DNA of 58,350 nucleotides from a virus: positions 1-58,350 of IMG/VR virus record IMGVR_UViG_3300029815_000015, one strand, 5' to 3'. Positions within the stretch are counted from its first letter, which is position 1. Each line of letters begins with the position of its first letter. Below are positions 7,821 through 38,882 of this stretch, one piece after another. The notes beneath the pieces were generated by a model. It saw nothing but the letters and a program-made list of their open reading frames with translations, made no database searches and was not told the DNA's origin. The translations under genes were made by a program, and so were the position numbers.

Positions 7821-8177
7821 TTATTTAGTATCAGTTTTGTTTGCTCTCCAAAGCAGGTCAATTCCCTCTAAAATATATTTTTTGGCTTTTTCATCGAGGG
7901 TATAATATTTCTTAATGGCTTCTTTTAGTTCTACATCTTCTGAAATATGAGCATCCAAAATGGCATCTTCTTCTGAATATGTTTTATCTTCTCCATTAAC
8001 CAAATAATCAATAGAGCAATCTAAACATTTTGCAATTTTTCTAATTTTTGAAATTTTAGGCTCACTTTTACCCTTTTTCCAATCGGAAAATGTACTTTTG
8101 GGAAAATCACAATATCCTGCTACTTGTGCGTCATTTAAACCTTTTAAATCTCTTAATTTACAGTATCTTTCGTACAT
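7821..8177 (-). CDS. cI-like HTH (XRE-family) repressor, 118 aa
   Basis: HTH segment LNDAQVAGYCDFPKSTFSDWKKGKSEPKISKIRKIAKCL. Start moved to the ATG at 8177, preceded by AAGGAG. Divergent from a cro-like gene. Confidence 0.8.
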   Translation of the reverse strand: MYERYCKLRDLKGLNDAQVAGYCDFPKSTFSDWKKGKSEPKISKIRKIAKCLDCSIDYLVNGEDKTYSEEDAILDAHISEDVELKEAIKKYYTLDEKAKKYILEGIDLLWRANKTDTK

Positions 8178-8224
8178 AGAAAATCTCCTTATCAAAAAAA
8201 GTTGCAATTTCTCAACTTTTAGGG

Positions 8225-8253
8225 TTGACAATCAAGACTTCCTAATGTATTAT
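8225..8253 (+). promoter_or_regulatory. Rightward promoter TTGACA-17-TATTAT
   Basis: -35 at 8225-8230, 17-nt spacer, -10 at 8248-8253. 7-bp inverted repeat TTCCTAA/TTAGGAA (8239-8245, 8263-8269) is centred on the -10. Confidence 0.65.
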
Positions 8254-8276
8254 AAAAACAAGTTAGGAAATCTCAA
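8249..8276 (-). promoter_or_regulatory. Leftward promoter for the repressor gene (TTGAGA-16-TATAAT)
   Basis: On the minus strand, -35 at 8276..8271 and -10 at 8254..8249. This -10 overlaps the -10 of the rightward promoter. Confidence 0.55.
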
Positions 8277-8394
8277 CCAATTCAAAATTGAGGAATTTAT
8301 ATTATGTTTTTTGCACAATTCATAGTATACACGATTTTCTAACTTTTATCAAGACATAGTTGTGAAAATCGAACAACTAAAAAGGATTTTCGGT

Positions 8395-8427
8395 AAAAAG
8401 ACTGTTAGTGTGCCGTCACTAACAGTC
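8395..8427 (-). terminator. Intrinsic terminator (minus strand)
   Basis: 11-bp perfect stem GACTGTTAGTG/CACTAACAGTC with a 6-nt loop. T5 follows only on the minus strand. Confidence 0.75.
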
Positions 8428-8774
8428 CTTTACCCCAATTTTTATACCGTATGCACTTTGCAGTCTTTCGACGCATTGTACGACACCAATGCTTCTTAAA
8501 GCACTCTGCCACTTATGCAGTTTGGGTTCAGCATAATTTATTGCCATTAGTTGGCAGATTGCAAGGAACAAGCGGTGTAGTGTGACAAATATCGGAATGT
8601 CAACCTCGAGTTTTTAACGAACTTCTCTGTTCGGCTACGCTACACTTGATGTTACATTTTACTCCATTTTAACGTGCTGTGGCTTCACGATTGCGACCTT
8701 GCAAATGCGGAACAGGCAAATTCAAAATTGCTTTCAAGGTATACACCTCCTAAGATGAATTTACCTAAAATGGC
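8396..8774 (-). ncRNA. Candidate ~380-nt non-coding (or 22-codon leader-peptide) RNA in the immunity region
   Basis: Bounded by a consensus promoter (8809..8781) and the terminator (8427..8395). No ORF above 22 codons. GC-richer than the flanks, with many local hairpins. Confidence 0.5.
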
Positions 8775-27505: not shown

Positions 27506-27548
27506 TATCTTTTAACAATGCTCTTTTCTTTAAGAAAGGAGAATGTGT

Positions 27549-28697
27549 ATGCCAAGCAGAAAAGATAACAAAGGAAGAGTATTAGAGAAAGGAGAAAGCC
27601 AAAGAACTGACGGTACTTATATGTACCGATGGACTGATTTATCAAAGAAACGTCAAGCAATATATGCCAAAACATTAAATGAACTACGACAAAAAGAGTT
27701 ACAAGTAACAAAAACTGAAATAATATCTGGTGTTTCTTGGGAAAGCAATAAAATAACAGTCCGGGAACTGATAGACAGGTATTTATCATTAAAAAAAGTC
27801 CGCATAACAACAGAACAGAAGTATAGATACCTAATAAATATGCTTGACAAGATACAGATATTGGATATTCCAATCAAAGACATAAAAACATCGTTGGCAA
27901 AGCGATATATGATTACCTTAAGCAATATAGGGTATTCGTATGGAACGGTTCAAAATGCAAAAACACTTTTGAAACCGGCTTTTCAGATGGCAGTCGAGGA
28001 TGATTATATAGTCAAAAATCCATTTCTATTCACTTTATCGAACATAATCGAAAACGATTCAAAGCAAAGATTTTCGATGAGTGAAGAAGAGGAAAATCAT
28101 TATATTGAATTTATTTCCAATCATGGATGGTTTCGACATATCTATGATGATGTGGTGATTCTTTTGAATACTGGAATGAGGGTAAGTGAATTATATGGAC
28201 TTACATTTAAGGATGTAGACCTCAAAAACAGAAGAATAAATGTAAATAAGCAATTGCACAGGATTGGTGGCAAATACGTTATTCTTCCACCAAAATCAAA
28301 AGCCGGTAATCGTATGCTTGCCATGAATGACGAAACAAGAAAAGCATTTATGCATAAAAGAACAGAAGTTAGACCAAAAGTAGAATATGCAATTGACGGA
28401 TATACTGGATTTGTTTTCATAAACCACTTGGGTTTTCCAAAAACAAGAAGAAATTTGGAAGGGTCGATGAGAGAAGTACGAAAAAAGCATATTGAACTTG
28501 GTCTTGGAGAGTTGCCGCAAATAACACCTCATGTGTTAAGGCATACATTCTGTAGCCGTATGGTTGAAAAAGGTATGAATGTAAAAACATTGCAATTAGT
28601 AATGGGTCATTCAGATATTTCCACAACATTAGATGTGTATACCCATAAGAAACCGGATGATGTTGCGAAAGAAATGGAACAATATGTTGCTATGTAA
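27549..28697 (+). CDS. int: Tyrosine integrase (Tn916-Int-like)
   Basis: N-terminus MPSRKDNKGRVLEKGESQRTDGTYMYRW. Catalytic HVLRHTFCS ... GHSDISTTLDVYTH. ATG 27549 lies 7 nt after AGGAG. Confidence 0.9.
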   Translation: MPSRKDNKGRVLEKGESQRTDGTYMYRWTDLSKKRQAIYAKTLNELRQKELQVTKTEIISGVSWESNKITVRELIDRYLSLKKVRITTEQKYRYLINMLDKIQILDIPIKDIKTSLAKRYMITLSNIGYSYGTVQNAKTLLKPAFQMAVEDDYIVKNPFLFTLSNIIENDSKQRFSMSEEEENHYIEFISNHGWFRHIYDDVVILLNTGMRVSELYGLTFKDVDLKNRRINVNKQLHRIGGKYVILPPKSKAGNRMLAMNDETRKAFMHKRTEVRPKVEYAIDGYTGFVFINHLGFPKTRRNLEGSMREVRKKHIELGLGELPQITPHVLRHTFCSRMVEKGMNVKTLQLVMGHSDISTTLDVYTHKKPDDVAKEMEQYVAM

Positions 28698-34595: not shown

Positions 34596-34694
34596 AAAGA
34601 AAAGCACCGTGCGTGAGGAATATTGGGGTATGTACCCGATACGCACAAATGCTGTTTGCGTATCATAAAACTTTTGATAGGAGGAATACGAAGT

Positions 34695-35555
34695 ATGAAT
34701 GGTATAATTACCCCTACAAAAGATGAGATTAGTCCAACAATCGGCAGTGCGACGAATGTTGTTGAATTTACTAACGGAGAGTTTGGAAAAATACGCACAG
34801 TTACTATTGACGGAAGACCTTATTTTGTCGCAAATGATGTTGCAAAATCATTGGGTTATAAAGATGTAATTAACGCAATTAAACAACATTGCAGGTGGGT
34901 GGTAAAACACGACATACCACATCCACAAAGCAAAACTAAAACAATCGAAGTAAACGTTATTCCAGAAGGAGATATTTACAGATTGGTAGCAAGCAGTCAA
35001 CTCCCAAACGCAGAAAAGTTTGAAAATTGGCTATTTGATGAGGTACTTCCAACCATACGAAAGACTGGCGGCTATGTGAATAACGATGAATTGTTCATCA
35101 ATACATATTTGCCGTTCGCAGAGGAAAGCACAAAGGTATTATTCTTGCAGACTTTGCAGACTGTCAGAGAACAGAATGAGATTATCCAACGTCAGCAAAC
35201 GGAAATCAAGGAACAAAAGCAAGAAATCGTACACAAGGAAGATGTGATTATTGGACTTGTTGGAGATATTGACCTTGCGACCAAACGACAGAGGATTACC
35301 CAGATTGTCAGACACTGTAAAAACAAGCAGTACAAAGAAAGATACCGCTTGTTATATGGAGAGTTTGAAAGAAAATATCACTGCAATCTAAAGTTGCGTA
35401 TGGAGAGTGATATACTAAAGCCGAAAGCCAGAAATACTATGGACTATATAGACCGTGGTATGAACATGATTCCGGAACTCTATGAGATTGCTTGTAAGTT
35501 GTTTGAAAATGATGTTGAAGAACTGAAAGCTGAATGGGATTTTGTTGTGGCGTAA
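34695..35555 (+). CDS. Bro-N antirepressor, second copy (286 aa)
   Basis: FTNGEFGKIRTVTIDGRPYFVANDVAKSLGY.., FENWLFDEVLPTIRKTGGY. ATG 34695 after AGGAGGAA. Confidence 0.8.
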   Translation: MNGIITPTKDEISPTIGSATNVVEFTNGEFGKIRTVTIDGRPYFVANDVAKSLGYKDVINAIKQHCRWVVKHDIPHPQSKTKTIEVNVIPEGDIYRLVASSQLPNAEKFENWLFDEVLPTIRKTGGYVNNDELFINTYLPFAEESTKVLFLQTLQTVREQNEIIQRQQTEIKEQKQEIVHKEDVIIGLVGDIDLATKRQRITQIVRHCKNKQYKERYRLLYGEFERKYHCNLKLRMESDILKPKARNTMDYIDRGMNMIPELYEIACKLFENDVEELKAEWDFVVA

Positions 35556-35637
35556 ACTACGAGGATGAATAATTAAAATTGACAGCAGACAGTATAACAA
35601 TAGAGATAAATCTTGCGAAATGCGAGTTTATGATAAA

Positions 35638-35673
35638 CCCATCGACTAATACTTAGTTGGTGGGTTTTATTTT
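35638..35673 (+). terminator. Intrinsic terminator
   Basis: 11-bp stem CCCATCGACTA/TAGTTGGTGGG (two G-U pairs), then TTTTATTTT. Confidence 0.65.
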
Positions 35674-35744
35674 AGTCCAATATTAGTTCAAGATTAGTAC
35701 AACTCGTGATATAATAATAAGAAATAGGAGCCTAAATTATGGAA

Positions 35745-35790
35745 AAGGCTCCTACTTTTTTGTCAATTGGCAACCGGGGGGGAGAAATAA
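35745..35790. terminator. Bidirectional terminator hairpin
   Basis: Stem TAGGAGCC/GGCTCCTA. T7 on the + side and a T-rich run on the minus side. Downstream of the minus-strand recombinase gene. Confidence 0.6.
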
Positions 35791-35839
35791 ATGGTTGCCG
35801 TATTATATTGGCTTTAGACCTTTACAGTGTACCATACAA

Positions 35840-36415
35840 TCAGATGATACACAAATGATTTTTCAATGCGTTCTCAACACGTTTTTCACTGATACTGATA
35901 TATCTTTGCGTTGTCGAACTGGATGAGTGCTGTAGCAGGTGACGCACCAGTTCAATATCATAATCGTTATTTAGGTACATTTCCGTAGCGTATAACTTAC
36001 GAAAACTGTGTGTTGATATTCCGTCAATTCCAAAGAAATCTGCTACGATTTTCAATTGTTTCTGTACGGCTCTTTCGCTGATTGGAAAGATTCTTGCAGT
36101 TGGTGAAATGCCGTTATCCTCGGTGTACTGCTTTAAGAACTGAAATAATTCAGTTGGAACCGTGAAGTTTCTTCCCTTGCCGGTTTTTTGCTCTACAATA
36201 TCCAGATGATAGCGGCCGCTCTCGTATACTACGTCTGAAAGCGTAAGGTGCAGTATATCAGAGATTCTAACTCCTATGTTGGCTTGCACTACCAGTAATG
36301 TCGCAAGCCGTTTGTTTGGCTTGAATACGTGTTCTCCGTAATTGAAGCCTTTGCGGATTGCAGTTATGATTTCTTTGTAGGTTTCCTTGTCTAATGCTTT
36401 TGTCTTTTTGTTCAT
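35840..36415 (-). CDS. Small tyrosine recombinase, catalytic domain only (191 aa)
   Basis: ..ANIGVRISDILHL.., THSFRKLYATEMY, LLQHSSSSTTQRYI. ATG 36415 preceded by AAGGAG. Confidence 0.8.
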   Translation of the reverse strand: MNKKTKALDKETYKEIITAIRKGFNYGEHVFKPNKRLATLLVVQANIGVRISDILHLTLSDVVYESGRYHLDIVEQKTGKGRNFTVPTELFQFLKQYTEDNGISPTARIFPISERAVQKQLKIVADFFGIDGISTHSFRKLYATEMYLNNDYDIELVRHLLQHSSSSTTQRYISISEKRVENALKNHLCII

Positions 36416-36455
36416 GCTGAACGCTCCTTTCTTTTTACGCCCGGTAAGCAAAATA

Positions 36456-36469
36456 TTTTGATACCCCCC
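36456..36469. repeat. 14-bp direct repeat TTTTGATACCCCCC, copy 1
   Basis: Identical to 36540-36553. Lies in the recombinase leader. Confidence 0.9.
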
Positions 36470-36539
36470 TACCTTTCATATTTTCAAGGTTGGAGAGAGA
36501 TTTTTGCGATTTCGGAAGTTGCGCCCGATAATGCAAATT

Positions 36540-36553
36540 TTTTGATACCCCCC
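36540..36553. repeat. 14-bp direct repeat TTTTGATACCCCCC, copy 2
   Basis: Identical to 36456-36469, 84 bp apart. Runs into the palindrome CCCCGGGG. Confidence 0.9.
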
Positions 36554-36744
36554 GGGGTTGCTAATTTTTATAGTTGCAGGGTGAATTTTTTCAAATTGAT
36601 TTATATTAACAGTTTTTGCACTGTTTTTTACTTTACTGATTTTAGATACACTAAATAAAGGCTTGCCCTTGTGAGACGTTCCAAGGCTCACATTTTGCCT
36701 TTTTATCTCGTGAGCCTATAAACTTGCCATAGATATATAAAATC

Positions 36745-36773
36745 AGTATACGGCTAATATAAAGAGTTGTCAA
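36745..36773 (-). promoter_or_regulatory. Consensus promoter TTGACA-17-TATACT (minus strand)
   Basis: Reverse complement reads TTGACA actctttatattagccg TATACT. About 320 nt upstream of the recombinase ATG. Confidence 0.7.
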
Positions 36774-36931
36774 GGTGCTATGCGTTTTTGCATCCAAACC
36801 AAACCGGAACACATCCGGCAGGGGAAAAACAATCTTTTGTTTTTTGGTATCGCAAACACACCGCCGGAGATTTGCGAAAAGCAAAACGGCAGCAGGGCGC
36901 GCGCCCACCAAAAGCAGGCAGAGCGCACGAC

Positions 36932-36959
36932 AAAAAGCCGGAACGCATCCGGCTTTTTG
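36932..36959. terminator. Bidirectional intrinsic terminator
   Basis: Stem AGCCGGA/TCCGGCT flanked by A5 and T5. Immediately after the stop of the minus-strand ORF 36960..37220. Confidence 0.75.
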
Positions 36960-37220
36960 TTAAATATAACAGAAATCCCCCGGCATCCCGGTTGATATTA
37001 TCATTTTCCCGTCATTTCTACGATAAACGACACCGCAACCGCCATCAAAAATATTCCAAACTAACCAGCCCGGCGGCGTAACGGCTTCTTGTTTTCTGTA
37101 ATCATAAAACGAATAATGCGGCTTGATTCCTTGCCGCTCCTGTTCAAGTGCATTTTCAATGATTTCCCTGTCTGTCAATAATAACGGTGTACCGTCTTTT
37201 TTTCTTCCGCAAAATCTCAT
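36960..37220 (-). CDS. Hypothetical protein (86 aa)
   Basis: Start moved to the ATG at 37220. GC-richer than the phage average. No motif. Confidence 0.45.
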   Translation of the reverse strand: MRFCGRKKDGTPLLLTDREIIENALEQERQGIKPHYSFYDYRKQEAVTPPGWLVWNIFDGGCGVVYRRNDGKMIISTGMPGDFCYI

Positions 37221-37272
37221 AAATATATACCGCCCTTCTGTTTTTAATTTTTTATGCCCTAAAAAGGGGAAA

Positions 37273-37312
37273 AGCAAGCCGGGGAATCGAACCCCGGTAA
37301 ATCCGACTTGCT
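37273..37312 (-). ncRNA. tRNA acceptor/T-arm minihelix-like element (also positioned as a terminator)
   Basis: Minus strand: AGCAAG-tcggattta-CCGGGG-TTCGATT-CCCCGG-CTTGCT followed by TTTCCCCTTTTT. GGTTCGATTCC is the canonical T-loop. Confidence 0.5.
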
Positions 37313-37318
37313 AAAATA

Positions 37319-37732
37319 TTATTTGGCTTTTGCTGCGTGCTTTGTAAGCTCTCTATAAAGCAGATTGCACGCTGTTATTTCTGCCTTATCCTCTGTATAT
37401 CTTTCTTTTTCCTCTTCTGTCTCGTCTAAAATATCAGCGAGCCAATCAATGGCAGAACCGAGAAAAATATCATCAGAAACAGGAAAAGCAGTTGGCAAAC
37501 CGCTCATCCACTCGATAAATAAATTCTGTCTGCTGATTCTTCCTACAATATACCGGTTGTCGAATTTGCATTTTTCAATTTCAAAAGCTGACAAAATGTC
37601 TTTACAAATTTCGTTGTATTCGGTTTTTACCGTTTTCCCGTTATATGAAAAATATTCCTCGGCTGCTTCATAACTTTCAATTATTTTGTTTTCGATTGCT
37701 TTCATAACTTCTTTACTGTTTGTCTTTCTCAT
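37319..37732 (-). CDS. Hypothetical protein (137 aa)
   Basis: Clean minus-strand ORF. No recognisable motif. Confidence 0.6.
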   Translation of the reverse strand: MRKTNSKEVMKAIENKIIESYEAAEEYFSYNGKTVKTEYNEICKDILSAFEIEKCKFDNRYIVGRISRQNLFIEWMSGLPTAFPVSDDIFLGSAIDWLADILDETEEEKERYTEDKAEITACNLLYRELTKHAAKAK

Positions 37733-37792
37733 AATTCTTTACCTTTTCGGGAATCTATGATATAATTCCCTTACCTTTCTTTTTTGATTGGT

Positions 37793-37828
37793 GGCGGTTC
37801 GTTCTTGGTAGGGGCGACCGCCTTTTTT
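37793..37828 (+). terminator. Hairpin plus T6 on the + strand
   Basis: Stem GGCGGT/ACCGCC, 18-nt loop, T6. No obvious + strand gene upstream. Confidence 0.35.
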
Positions 37829-37903
37829 GTTTCTGTATATAATATAACCTATTTTTAGAATAATGTCAAGTGTTTTTGTAATCTTTTTTGTGAATATTTT
37901 TTC

Positions 37904-37932
37904 TTGATTTCTTTCTATATATATGATACAAT
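37904..37932 (+). promoter_or_regulatory. Promoter TTGATT-17-TACAAT
   Basis: -35 at 37904-37909, -10 at 37927-37932. Upstream of the HTH gene. Confidence 0.55.
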
Positions 37933-37956
37933 TAAAGCGCTAGGAGGTGATGAACT

Positions 37957-38184
37957 TTGATAAAATATAAAACAGATGTTCTGAAATTGCTAAAAAAACA
38001 CGGATACAATCAAACACGCATACAAAAGGAAAAACTGCTTTCAGGACAAACAAACGCAAATTTGCGAACTGGTAAAATGGTAAATTTAGATACCATAAAT
38101 AAAATTTGCGTTATGTGTCGCTGCCAACCGGGCGATATTCTGGAAGTAATCCCGACGGATGAAGAAAAAATAAAATATTTTTAG
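37957..38184 (+). CDS. Small HTH-type DNA-binding protein (75 aa)
   Basis: TTG start after AGGAGGTG. ..NLRTGKMVNLDTINKICVMCRCQPGDILE resembles short XRE-like HTH proteins. Confidence 0.5.
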   Translation: MIKYKTDVLKLLKKHGYNQTRIQKEKLLSGQTNANLRTGKMVNLDTINKICVMCRCQPGDILEVIPTDEEKIKYF

Positions 38185-38273
38185 AAAAAAGTAGTTGAAA
38201 ATATTCTAAAAGTAGGTTATAATTGACTTATCAAATAAAGAAAGGCACGGGAGACCGTGAAAAGGTGGAAATC

Positions 38274-38882
38274 ATGAACAAGGATAATGTGTATGAAGTC
38301 GAGTATATGCTCGGCAATGAAGAAAAAAGTGGCTACGTGATTGCCGATAATGAAAGTATGGCAAGTGATGTTGCGTATTTTCTTTTTGGTGAGGGAGAAG
38401 ATGAGCCATACAAAGAAATTGGAATCTACGATAATTCCATGTATGACTTTTTTGTTTTGGAAAGGGAGAATGACGGAAGTTATGAAAATGAAATCTTTGA
38501 AACGAAAGAAGAAGCGTTTTCTAAGATTGGAGTTGATGGGTGGACTATGGACGATTTAAAAGTCTACTCAGAAGGAGAATCCTATGATTTTAAAAAATGG
38601 AATTTTGAGGAAATGAAAAACAAAATATTAAAAAAATTTAATGGCTTGACTTTCCCAATTCGTACCGTTGTTTGTGACGGGAAAAAGTATGTTGGGCGCC
38701 TTGCGTCTGACGATGAATGTTGGGAGATGCTGAGTAATTGCAATTACCTATATGGCTTTATGATTAACGAAGAAAATAGCCAAATTACAAAGATGTTTTT
38801 TAATATTCCAGAAGGTATGGAACTGGATGACGATGACAACTATAAAGAAGCTGTTTCCTGCGAGGAAATCGAGGAATTATAA
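38274..38882 (+). CDS. Highly acidic hypothetical protein (202 aa)
   Basis: ATG 38274 after AAGGTGGA. Asp/Glu-rich throughout. Confidence 0.6.
   Translation: MNKDNVYEVEYMLGNEEKSGYVIADNESMASDVAYFLFGEGEDEPYKEIGIYDNSMYDFFVLERENDGSYENEIFETKEEAFSKIGVDGWTMDDLKVYSEGESYDFKKWNFEEMKNKILKKFNGLTFPIRTVVCDGKKYVGRLASDDECWEMLSNCNYLYGFMINEENSQITKMFFNIPEGMELDDDDNYKEAVSCEEIEEL

What the first reader, a model, noticed from the sequence alone, without database searches (positions are those of the whole stretch)
35700..37950. Opposite-strand, GC-richer island: small tyrosine recombinase with a ~320-nt structured leader
This is the only multi-gene minus-strand block apart from the repressor. By eye it is clearly GC-richer at about 36780-37320.

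It holds three transcription units, each with its own terminator: 37732..37319, 37220..36960 and 36415..35840.

The 191-aa recombinase has only the catalytic domain. It is driven from a consensus TTGACA-17-TATACT promoter (36773..36745) through a ~320-nt leader with no credible ORF.

The leader contains mutually exclusive pairings: AGGCTCAC/GTGAGCCT versus GTGAG/CTCAC and CCTTG/CAAGG, around 36671-36717. This is the look of an attenuator or riboswitch-like element.

Inference: the block is a horizontally acquired module (multimer-resolution, inversion or secondary integration system) with RNA-level control of recombinase expression.
Basis: partly seen in the sequence, partly recalled or inferred. 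Interest (0 to 1): 0.65.

Follow-up and report, generated by a model that had tools for sequence, protein, structure and literature searches.

The report
Small phage recombinase, long untranslated leader
A gut-bacterial virus carries a conserved, apparently active mini-recombinase inside a block of swappable accessory genes; its long leader is not a riboswitch but holds two degenerate copies of a promoter-like DNA motif, so this is a modestly interesting, mostly ordinary phage feature whose target is still unknown.

Summary
The sequence features are real. There is a minus-strand block with three ORFs, two near-consensus sigma-70 promoters and three terminator-like hairpins. It includes a 191-aa tyrosine recombinase that is catalytic domain only, behind a ~330-nt leader with no conserved ORF.

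The interpretation mostly fails.

- The recombinase module (36966..35716) is present and syntenic in all 37 close relatives and in 61-86 % relatives whose main integrases differ. Only the two upstream ORFs are swappable cargo.
- The GC excess is confined to 180 non-coding bases.
- The proposed alternative RNA helices exist in full only in this sequence (1 of 31). Rfam finds nothing, and the leader holds no terminator.

The conserved part of the leader is two copies of a ~35-nt "G-box" (GGGGGG-TATC-A/T tract-TTGC). In related phages the G-box sits exactly 17 nt before a TATATT hexamer and ahead of various cargo genes, even where there is no recombinase. Here the -10 hexamer is lost, yet the boxes are among the least variable stretches of the module.

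The recombinase is under strong purifying selection and keeps all six catalytic residues. In a sister clade its gene is preceded by an inverted pair plus a tandem pair of TACGAAC motifs. That layout matches the Tn4430 TnpI resolution site and points to a resolvase-like, self-regulated role. No such site was found in this phage.

The parts
37841..37869 (-). Promoter P1 of the accessory block (TTGACA-17-TATATT). It is divergent from the HTH_26 gene at 37957..38184(+).
   Evidence: 11/12 consensus match. The region 37725-37870 is conserved in relatives whose downstream cargo differs.
37319..37732 (-). Cargo ORF 1 (137 aa, no family assignment). It belongs to a set of first-position cargo proteins that start MR(K/R)TNSKE.
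   Evidence: No Pfam, PHROG or NCBIfam hit. Homologues at 90-91 % occur in only some close relatives, at 75 % in recombinase-less L205 and at 54 % in L191. The gene is replaced in other relatives.
37261..37312 (-). tRNA-like minihelix plus U-tract. An acceptor-like stem AGCAAG/CTTGCT encloses a T-arm CCGGGG-TTCGATT-CCCCGG. It probably acts as a terminator or RNA-processing signal between cargo genes.
   Evidence: Partial tmRNA T-arm match, E 0.0019. Terminator-like in the scan. Fold -21.7 kcal/mol, z -2.1. 31 distinct variants occur in related phages, with the T-arm and 3' strand nearly invariant and compensatory changes in both stems.
36960..37220 (-). Cargo ORF 2 (86 aa, unknown function). 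It has no promoter of its own.
   Evidence: ORF listed with no family hit. Homologues are scattered at 69-98 % in some relatives, with or without the recombinase.
36930..36960 (-). Strong intrinsic terminator and start of the conserved recombinase module.
   Evidence: Perfect 13-bp inverted repeat (I17). Fold -20.5 kcal/mol, z -5.5. Homology with all relatives begins here.
36780..36929 (-). GC-rich non-coding spacer of unknown role. It is bounded by two similar hairpins, GCCGGATG(C/T)GTTCCGG.
   Evidence: 51.9 % GC, z 3.4. Indels of 1-2 nt in relatives rule out coding. Repeat D12. A similar 'terminator-TTTTTGTCGTG-GC-rich-promoter' layout occurs in L118 and L322.
36745..36773 (-). Promoter P2 (TTGACA-17-TATACT) of the recombinase transcript.
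   Evidence: 11/12 match. The -10 hexamer is invariant and the -35 unchanged in 30 of 31 distinct relatives.
36635..36747 (-). 5' domain of the leader.
   Evidence: Stem D is 95 % paired, and within the stem proper (36738-36746 / 36636-36644) the only changes are wobble-compatible; the outermost pair is unpaired in 14 of 31. The interior helices are not conserved. This is the most variable part of the leader.
36519..36557 (-). G-box copy R1 (AACCCCGGGGGGTATCAAAAAATTTGCATTATCGGGCG). It is promoter-like but lacks a -10 hexamer.
   Evidence: Direct repeat D1. The pattern occurs only here and at R2 in the window, against 0.02 expected. nhmmer E 2e-5. Among the least variable stretches of the module. 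The hexamer 17 nt after the G-run is TATCGG here but TATATT in other lineages.
36435..36472 (-). G-box copy R2 (GGTAGGGGGGTATCAAAATATTTTGCTTACCGGGCG). It ends 10 nt before the ribosome-binding site.
   Evidence: The hexamer at +17 is TACCGG.
35840..36415 (-). 191-aa tyrosine recombinase, catalytic domain only, predicted to be active.
   Evidence: PF00589 only and phrog_216. R50, K77, H136, R139, H163 and Y172 are invariant in 49 homologues and align to XerD R148, K172, H244, R247, H270 and Y279. AlphaFold pLDDT 87.8, best fold matches XerH and XerA catalytic domains. 728 synonymous against 95 non-synonymous codon differences.
35719..35760 (.). Terminator hairpin at the end of the module, shared with the converging plus-strand genes.
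   Evidence: Inverted repeat I19. Fold z -4.5. Homology with relatives ends at 35716.

Best explanation
The region is the accessory ('moron'-type) block of a roughly 58-kb temperate tailed phage of gut Clostridia. It is transcribed against the rest of the genome.

Its upstream half is exchangeable cargo: two small ORFs separated by a tRNA-like hairpin. Exchange appears to happen by homologous recombination at conserved intergenic linkers.

Its downstream half (36966..35716) is a conserved module of this phage lineage. It runs terminator, GC-rich spacer, sigma-70 promoter, ~330-nt untranslated leader, then a 191-aa tyrosine recombinase that is catalytic domain only and catalytically intact.

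The leader is not an RNA sensor. Its constrained part is two copies of a lineage-wide promoter/operator module, the 'G-box', which in related phages drives the recombinase or other cargo genes. In this clade the G-box -10 hexamers are lost and transcription comes from the upstream consensus promoter.

Inferred, not shown: the retained G-boxes act as protein-binding control sites within the leader, for example as a roadblock or operator for an unidentified G-box-binding factor.

Also inferred, from the site layout of the sister clade: the recombinase is an autonomous, self-regulated site-specific recombinase of the resolution type, working like TnpI, XerH or Cre, and is not the phage's integrase. 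Its own target in this phage has not been identified.
For: PHAGE CONTEXT
- The window encodes tape measure, primase/helicase, a full-length 384-aa integrase at 27543-28697, terminase, portal and capsid, and a repressor at 7821-8231.

CONSERVED MODULE VERSUS VARIABLE CARGO
- Module boundaries and cargo variation are seen.
- Synteny holds in relatives at 86 to 70 % protein identity that carry different main integrases.
- Cargo ORFs are shared patchily with recombinase-less phages.

RECOMBINASE IS FUNCTIONAL
- The catalytic hexad is conserved.
- The predicted fold is a tyrosine-recombinase catalytic domain.
- 728 synonymous against 95 non-synonymous codon differences.

LEADER
- The proximal leader 36431-36640 is among the least variable stretches of the module, on average less variable than the CDS.
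- The G-box occurs only there in the window.
- G-boxes are always in the gene's orientation, both upstream and downstream of recombinase genes in relatives.
- G-boxes are also present at the same genomic position in about 45 related contigs with no recombinase nearby.
- G-boxes precede a DUF4352 membrane-protein gene in L322.
- A TATATT, TATAAT or TAAAAT hexamer lies exactly 17 nt after the G-run in most copies outside the window clade. Both window copies have TATCGG or TACCGG there.

SISTER CLADE
- ATACGAAC and its reverse complement (GTTCGTAT) occur 131 times within 250 nt upstream of the gene and only at background level elsewhere.
- 66 of 81 loci have GTTCGTA-N12-TACGAAC, and 58 of 81 also have a tandem pair 20-25 nt apart that often overlaps the gene's own promoter.
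- This is the layout of the Tn4430 resolution site: IR1-IR2 core plus DR1-DR2 accessory motifs (PMC2847244).
- The site is intact in contigs assigned to bacterial genomes, so it is not a split attP.
Against: - No recombination site (an inverted pair of recombinase-binding motifs) was found near the gene in this phage or its clade. A k-mer search recovers only the G-box.
- The G-box is not specific to the recombinase, so the recombinase may not bind it.
- No protein is known to bind the G-box.
- G-box promoter activity is inferred from spacing alone.
- A phage with a chromosomal integrase has no obvious need for multimer resolution.
- No recombination product was seen among the relatives.
- The resolvase analogy rests on relatives only 45-62 % identical to this protein.
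Confidence: 0.5

Rival explanations
1. The block is a recently acquired GC-rich island, and recombinase expression is set by a riboswitch-like or attenuator RNA in the leader that switches between mutually exclusive helices.
For: The helices can be drawn in this sequence. The leader is long and lacks a conserved ORF. There is a local GC-rich patch. The two upstream ORFs do vary among relatives.
Against: - Helix A loses its three loop-proximal pairs in most relatives with no compensation, and helix B is 48 % paired.
- This stretch is the most variable part of the leader.
- No Rfam family matches the leader at E<=1 or reaches its gathering score there.
- No terminator-like site lies in the leader.
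- Fold z-scores are only -2.0, -1.6 and -0.2.
- The recombinase module is conserved and syntenic in every relative.
- Gene composition is not unusual.
Confidence: 0.04
2. The recombinase gene is a minimal site-specific mobile cassette whose attachment site is the G-box. Recombinase-less phages with a single G-box would be empty sites. Loci with G-box, recombinase, G-box in direct orientation would be occupied sites.
For: - Direct G-box copies flank the gene in L038, L121-125, L190 and L191. The downstream copy starts 4-7 nt after the stop codon in L121, L124, L190 and L193.
- Single G-boxes sit at the same genomic position in related phages without the gene.
- In L121 and L124 the downstream copy is not followed by a gene.
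Against: - The gene occupies the same syntenic slot in all lineages examined.
- No isogenic occupied/empty pair was found.
- G-boxes are explained more simply as promoters, given the 17-nt spacing to a -10 hexamer and the following ribosome-binding site and ATG.
- The window clade has two upstream copies and none downstream. L193 has only downstream copies and L192 none.
- The sister clade has its sites only upstream of the gene.
Confidence: 0.08
3. The protein is a FimB/FimE- or RecV-like DNA invertase. It would flip a promoter-bearing segment in the phage, or phase-variable switches in the host chromosome, as a form of lysogenic conversion.
For: Its size and catalytic-domain-only architecture resemble FimB/FimE (~200 aa; own knowledge). 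It lies in a block with its own sigma-70 promoters, as is typical of prophage-expressed genes.
Against: - No inverted repeats flank either promoter beyond weak, chance-level pairs.
- No inverted segment appears among the relatives.
- The NCBIfam invertase models PRK09870 and PRK09871 do not match this protein, though they weakly match the large integrase.
- The best sequence and fold matches are Xer-type recombinases.
Confidence: 0.1
4. It is a second integrase, giving the phage an alternative attachment site, possibly the tRNA-like element at 37261-37312.
For: The PHROG families it matches are annotated 'integrase'. A tRNA/tmRNA-like T-arm lies 900 nt upstream.
Against: - The protein has no arm-binding or core-binding domain.
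- In the sister clade the adjacent sites are intact in contigs assigned to bacterial genomes.
- The tRNA-like element shows compensatory changes in both stems, so it looks like an RNA structure, and it occurs in recombinase-less phages.
- The phage already has a full-length integrase.
Confidence: 0.05
5. The protein no longer recombines DNA and acts only as a DNA-binding transcription regulator of the accessory block.
For: In the sister clade the tandem motifs overlap the gene's own promoter, for example TTGCAA-[AATACGAAC...]-TATAAT. That pattern indicates autoregulation.
Against: All six catalytic residues, including the tyrosine nucleophile, are invariant in 49 homologues spanning 60-86 % identity. 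This is hard to explain without catalysis. The inverted core pair in the sister clade is typical of a strand-exchange site.
Confidence: 0.1

Closest known systems
TnpI recombinase and internal resolution site (IRS) of Tn4430/Tn5401
   Same: Both are tyrosine recombinases. In the sister clade (45-62 % identical to this protein) the gene is directly preceded, within about 125 bp, by four copies of one motif: an inverted core pair plus two tandem copies. The 116-bp IRS has the same layout, IR1-IR2 core plus DR1-DR2 accessory motifs (PMC2847244).
   Different: TnpI is 284 aa (own knowledge), so it is larger than a bare catalytic domain, and it belongs to a Tn3-family transposon. This protein is 191 aa and lies in a phage. 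The window clade itself shows no inverted-plus-tandem motif set. The proteins are not close in sequence.
Single-recombinase Xer systems (XerH/difH, XerA, XerS/difSL)
   Same: These are the best sequence and structure matches (NCBIfam XerA model E 1.6e-23 but far below its cut-off). In the XerH and XerS systems the recombinase gene lies next to its site (own knowledge).
   Different: Xer proteins have an N-terminal core-binding domain, act on the chromosome terminus and depend on FtsK. Identity here is only 20-22 %. No dif-like site was found.
Cre/loxP of phage P1
   Same: It is a phage-encoded tyrosine recombinase with its site just upstream of the gene (own knowledge). The sister-clade arm AGTTCGTATAA resembles the loxP arm ACTTCGTATA by eye.
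   Different: Cre is 343 aa with two domains, and P1 is a plasmid prophage. The motif resemblance is short and may be chance. It does not apply to the window clade.
FimB/FimE-type invertases
   Same: They are about 200 aa and essentially catalytic domain only (own knowledge).
   Different: There is no invertible segment or flanking inverted repeats, and no match to the NCBIfam invertase models.
Morons of temperate phages (Hendrix's concept: promoter, gene and terminator units inserted between core genes)
   Same: The block has its own promoters and terminators, is oriented against the core genome, and varies in gene content among near-identical phages.
   Different: One member of the block, the recombinase, is not variable. 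It is a fixed feature of the lineage.

Membership tests
Tyrosine recombinase superfamily | Catalytic residues R-K-H-R-H/W-Y in the conserved order | tested here: met
   R50, K77, H136, R139, H163 and Y172 align to XerD R148, K172, H244, R247, H270 and Y279. They are invariant in 49 homologues.
Tyrosine recombinase superfamily | Catalytic-domain fold | tested here: met
   AlphaFold pLDDT 87.8, pTM 0.83. Foldseek probability 1.0 to XerH, XerA, IntI4, Cre and the HP1 and P2 integrase catalytic domains. PF00589, 69 bits.
Xer / phage-integrase type (two-domain) recombinases | N-terminal core-binding (SAM-like) domain | tested here: not met
   The Pfam match covers residues 7-177 of 191 and no second domain is found. 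Structure matches cover only the C-terminal halves of the full-length targets, TM-score normalised to target 0.38-0.50.
Xer single-recombinase systems | Adjacent dif-like site: two ~11-bp inverted arms around a 6-8-bp spacer | tested here: not met
   No conserved inverted pair lies near the gene in the window clade.
TnpI/IRS-type resolution system | Inverted core pair plus tandem accessory copies of one motif directly upstream of the recombinase gene | tested here: not met
   The window has only two direct G-boxes 84 nt apart, and these are not recombinase-specific. The feature is met in the sister clade, in 58 of 81 loci.
TnpI/IRS-type resolution system | Resolution of directly repeated sites (deletion products) | not testable with these tools
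   This needs an in vivo or in vitro recombination assay.
FimB/FimE-type invertases | Inverted repeats bounding an invertible promoter segment; both orientations seen in populations | tested here: not met
   No such repeats are found. All 37 relatives are collinear. The NCBIfam invertase models do not match.
Riboswitch / transcription attenuator | Conserved alternative helices supported by covariation, with a terminator or RBS-sequestering helix | tested here: not met
   See the pair counts. No terminator lies in 36416-36745. No Rfam family matches the leader. Fold z-scores are -2.0 and -0.23.
Horizontally acquired island | Atypical composition and absence from close relatives | tested here: not met
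   The block is 38.9 % GC, z 1.2. The recombinase module is present in all relatives. The feature is met only for the two cargo ORFs.
Phage moron block | Own promoter and terminator, opposite orientation, variable presence among related phages | tested here: met
   Expression from the prophage was not tested.

The most novel reading that the evidence does not exclude
The 191-aa recombinase together with one G-box is a minimal self-inserting gene cassette. It would target a conserved promoter motif in the accessory blocks of gut Clostridia phages. Single G-boxes in recombinase-less phages would then be empty sites, and G-box-flanked recombinase genes occupied sites. This would be an integron-like or 'recombinase-only' mobile element that lives inside phage genomes.
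Probability: 0.08. Interest if true: 0.75.

Novelty: new variant of a known kind. Interest (0 to 1): 0.38.

Why it matters
Small tyrosine recombinases with only a catalytic domain are very common. This family alone gave 5508 database hits. More distant versions occur as a small recombinase gene, apart from the usual integrase position, in many Streptococcus, Bacillus and Clostridioides phages. No study of their role turned up in the literature searches run here.

The comparison gives a testable lead. A large sister clade carries a four-motif site set next to the gene, laid out like a transposon resolution site. This predicts both the binding motif and the reaction (deletion between direct repeats, with autoregulation).

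The work also defines a promoter-like "G-box" and a tRNA-like minihelix as recurring punctuation of accessory-gene blocks in gut phages. Both could help in annotating and engineering these phages.

For this particular window the practical message is negative. There is no riboswitch and no acquired island here.

Tried and rejected
- DNA similarity search of the block against deposited phage genomes: no match.
- Rfam at a permissive E-value on 35000-38500 and at gathering threshold on the window plus seven loci: nothing in the leader.
- nhmmer with the leader against distant loci: no sequence homology at or below 74 % protein identity.
- Upstream gap lengths in distant loci: too noisy to use because of spurious ORFs.
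- TACGAAC or CGAAC motifs in the window clade: absent, apart from a dispensable triple CGAAC in L121 and L038 that is missing in L122, which encodes the same protein.
- G-box as a sigma-54 or sigma-B type promoter, a CRISPR-like repeat, a G-quadruplex, or an antisense promoter (TTGCGA-17-GATAAT on the plus strand; near-consensus in L205 only). All were considered by eye, and none fits the copies consistently.
- 33-aa upstream ORF with a G-run ribosome-binding site: broken by indels in relatives.
- Degenerate inverted G-run downstream of the gene (35774-35792, I8): not conserved in L118.
- Close relatives lacking the recombinase, sought with the ORF6N neighbour as probe: none found. All hits at or above 72 % carry the gene.
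- Occupied/empty locus pairs by blastn: only mosaic cargo sharing was seen.
- The Bro-gene indel next to the module: flanked by AAGAAATAG microhomology, not by recombinase-type sites.
- The 253-aa ORF in L205 that looked Cas5-like by eye: no family match.
- Literature searches for small phage recombinases and for the G-box sequence: nothing found.


Full report
CONTEXT

The window is a temperate tailed-phage genome.
- It encodes a tape measure, SbcC-like nuclease, primase/helicase, methyltransferase, large terminase, portal and major head protein.
- It has a full-length 384-aa tyrosine integrase at 27543-28697 and a CI-type repressor at 7821-8231 on the minus strand.
- GC skew is positive everywhere except 8001-8500 and about 36500-38000. 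These are therefore the only two regions transcribed leftward.
- Homologues of the small recombinase occur in contigs assigned to Oscillospiraceae, Lachnospiraceae, Christensenellales and other Clostridia. Close relatives are ~55-60-kb IMG/VR contigs.

CHECK OF THE OBSERVATION

The three minus-strand ORFs exist.
- The 191-aa product is a tyrosine recombinase made only of the catalytic domain. PF00589 covers residues 7-177, profile positions 2-170 of 172.
- The AlphaFold model (pLDDT 87.8) matches the C-terminal domains of XerH, XerA, IntI4 and Cre, and the isolated catalytic domains of the HP1 and P2 integrases.
- The six catalytic residues align with those of XerD and are invariant in 49 homologues.

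Two near-consensus promoters are present, at 37869..37841 and 36773..36745. Three terminator-like hairpins follow the three ORFs. No promoter precedes the 86-aa ORF, so there are two promoters rather than three units.

The GC excess is real but local.
- 36780-36960 is non-coding and 51.9 % GC (z 3.4).
- The block as a whole has z 1.2 and the recombinase gene z 1.1, so neither stands out.

IS IT AN ISLAND?

No. Thirty-seven IMG/VR loci encode a 97-99 % identical recombinase.
- In all those that span the region, the stretch 36966..35716 aligns at 93-96 %. It comprises terminator, GC-rich spacer, promoter, leader, gene and terminator.
- The stretch 37725..36966, holding the 137- and 86-aa ORFs, is replaced by other sequence in many of them.
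- The two cargo ORFs recur patchily, including in phages that have no recombinase.

More distant relatives keep the same arrangement: a block on the opposite strand with several small variable genes and the 191-aa gene.
- These relatives are at 86, 76, 73, 71, 70, 67 and 64 % protein identity.
- Their main integrases are of different kinds.

The recombinase shows 728 synonymous against 95 non-synonymous codon differences among the close relatives. It is a fixed, selected gene of the lineage. Only the cargo in front of it is mobile.

Cargo boundaries coincide with conserved intergenic linkers. These are the P1 leader up to the second codon, the tRNA-like hairpin, and the terminator at 36960. 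That pattern is expected for exchange by homologous recombination. The neighbouring Bro-type anti-repressor gene (34602-35715) is an indel flanked by a 9-nt microhomology.

IS THE LEADER AN RNA SWITCH?

No evidence supports this.
- Rfam finds nothing in it.
- There is no terminator-like site between promoter and start codon.
- Folding energy is unremarkable: z -2.0 for the whole leader, -1.6 for the distal part and -0.23 for the proximal part.

They are paired in 13, 6 and 5 of 31, through one-sided changes only. The competing helix is 48 % paired. The window is the only sequence in which both helices are complete. That stretch is the most variable part of the leader.

One RNA feature does look conserved. 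A 10-bp stem joins the transcript's 5' end to 36635-36644. It is 95 % paired. Apart from its outermost pair, unpaired in 14 of 31 sequences, its only changes are wobble-compatible. It may simply stabilise the mRNA.

WHAT IS CONSERVED IN THE LEADER?

The proximal 200 nt are among the least variable parts of the module, on average less variable than the coding sequence. They contain two 71-nt direct repeats.

The core of each repeat is a ~35-nt motif, GGGGGG-TATC-(A/T tract)-TTGC, here called the G-box. It occurs nowhere else in the window.

The same motif, always in the gene's orientation, is found next to the recombinase gene in relatives down to 64 % identity.
- It lies upstream, immediately after the stop codon, or both.
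- It is weaker in a 45 % clade.

The G-box is not tied to the recombinase.
- A scan of IMG/VR found it in 72 stretches of DNA. About 45 of these come from syntenic but more distant phages that have no recombinase nearby.
- In those phages it lies at the end of the same opposite-strand block (L205) or in front of a DUF4352 membrane-protein gene (L322).

Outside the window clade most distinct copies have TATATT, TATAAT or TAAAAT exactly 17 nt after the G-run. A ribosome-binding site and ATG usually follow 15-45 nt further on. The G-box therefore looks like a promoter whose -35 position is occupied by the G-run. That position would presumably be read by an activator, a repressor or a special sigma factor.

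In the window clade both copies have TATCGG or TACCGG at the -10 position. Transcription evidently comes from the consensus promoter 330 nt upstream. Why the two disabled boxes are so well conserved is not shown. Protein binding within the transcribed leader is the simplest inference.

WHAT DOES THE RECOMBINASE DO?

The best clue comes from relatives 45-62 % identical.
- Within 250 nt upstream of the gene, ATACGAAC and its reverse complement occur 131 times. Elsewhere within +/-6 kb the motif is at background level.
- 66 of 81 loci have the inverted pair AGTTCGTAtAA-N-aaaTACGAAC.
- 58 of 81 also have two tandem copies 20-25 nt apart next to the ribosome-binding site.
- These tandem copies often lie inside or just after the gene's own promoter.

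Four copies of one motif, arranged as an inverted core plus two tandem accessory copies directly upstream of the recombinase gene, is the design of the 116-bp internal resolution site of Tn4430, where TnpI acts (PMC2847244).

The sites are intact in contigs assigned to bacterial genomes, so they are not a split attP.

This supports a self-contained, autoregulated recombinase that acts on a site beside its gene, most simply in resolution of multimers. In the window clade no such site set was found. A k-mer search recovers only the G-box, and CGAAC motifs are absent. The assignment for this phage is therefore an extrapolation.

RIVALS

- A mobile "recombinase plus G-box" cassette is not excluded. 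It is disfavoured by the fixed synteny, by the lack of any occupied/empty pair, and by the simpler promoter reading of the G-box.
- An invertase is disfavoured by the absence of flanking inverted repeats and of any inverted variant, and by the NCBIfam results.
- A second integrase is disfavoured by the missing DNA-binding domains and by the intact sites in contigs assigned to bacterial genomes.
- A purely regulatory protein is disfavoured by the invariant catalytic residues.

VERDICT

Its two distinctive claims, an acquired island and RNA-level control, are not supported.

The locus is a new variant of a known kind. It is an uncharacterised family of phage tyrosine recombinases that are catalytic domain only, embedded in an accessory-gene block with its own promoter-like repeats. 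Interest is moderate.

Noticed in passing
window 37261-37312 (-); also L177, L179, L205, L322 and about 30 other variants: A tRNA-like minihelix follows the first cargo gene in many related phages, with or without the recombinase. An acceptor-like stem AGCAAG/CTTGCT encloses a canonical T-arm CCGGGG-TTCGATT-CCCCGG, followed by a U-tract. The T-arm and 3' strand are almost invariant. Compensatory changes occur in both stems: GGCAAG/CTTGCC in L177 and L321, and CCCGGG/CCCGGG in L179. It could be a terminator, an RNase P/Z processing signal or a relic of a tRNA att site.
   Followed up: partly
window 8396-8558 (-): A strong match to the Rfam FuFi-1 RNA (135 bits, gathering score 59.6) lies next to the CI-type repressor gene at 7821-8231.
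   Followed up: no
L121 3877-3944 (+); 84-95 % identical copies in loci from several window-clade contigs (e.g. L163, L207, L212, L214): A type II hammerhead ribozyme (66 bits) sits in the variable cargo region of the same accessory block in relatives, though not in the window. A pistol ribozyme occurs in L165 (1449-1519). Self-cleaving RNAs and the tRNA-like element may punctuate the cargo transcripts.
   Followed up: partly
L039-L117, L161-L172: the 130 nt upstream of the recombinase gene: The sister clade carries a four-motif site set, AGTTCGTAtAA-N-aaaTACGAAC plus two tandem TACGAAC copies. It resembles the Tn4430 TnpI resolution site, and its arm resembles a loxP arm. The tandem pair is in the reverse orientation in 14 of 58 loci.
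   Followed up: yes
window 34602-35715 (+): The Bro-N anti-repressor gene next to the block is missing in many 94-95 % identical relatives. The indel is flanked by the 9-nt repeat AAGAAATAG.
   Followed up: yes
window 36780-36960 (-); L118, L322 3600-3760: A GC-rich non-coding spacer begins 'TTTTTGTCGTG' right after a terminator and ends at a sigma-70 promoter. The layout recurs in divergent relatives. In the window it is bounded by two similar hairpins, GCCGGATG(C/T)GTTCCGG. Its role is unknown.
   Followed up: partly
window 37957-38184 (+): A 75-aa Cro/C1-type HTH_26 gene lies divergent from the block's first promoter. It is conserved at this position in related phages, including recombinase-less ones (30-53 % identity). 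It may control the block.
   Followed up: no
L205 5340-5650; L194-L259: In recombinase-less relatives the single G-box lies in an ~300-nt AT-rich non-coding stretch full of AAAATTG-type repeats, ending in a hairpin terminator. In some loci (L196, L218) a second G-box-like sequence forms the loop of that hairpin. This may be a small RNA gene or a regulatory region.
   Followed up: partly
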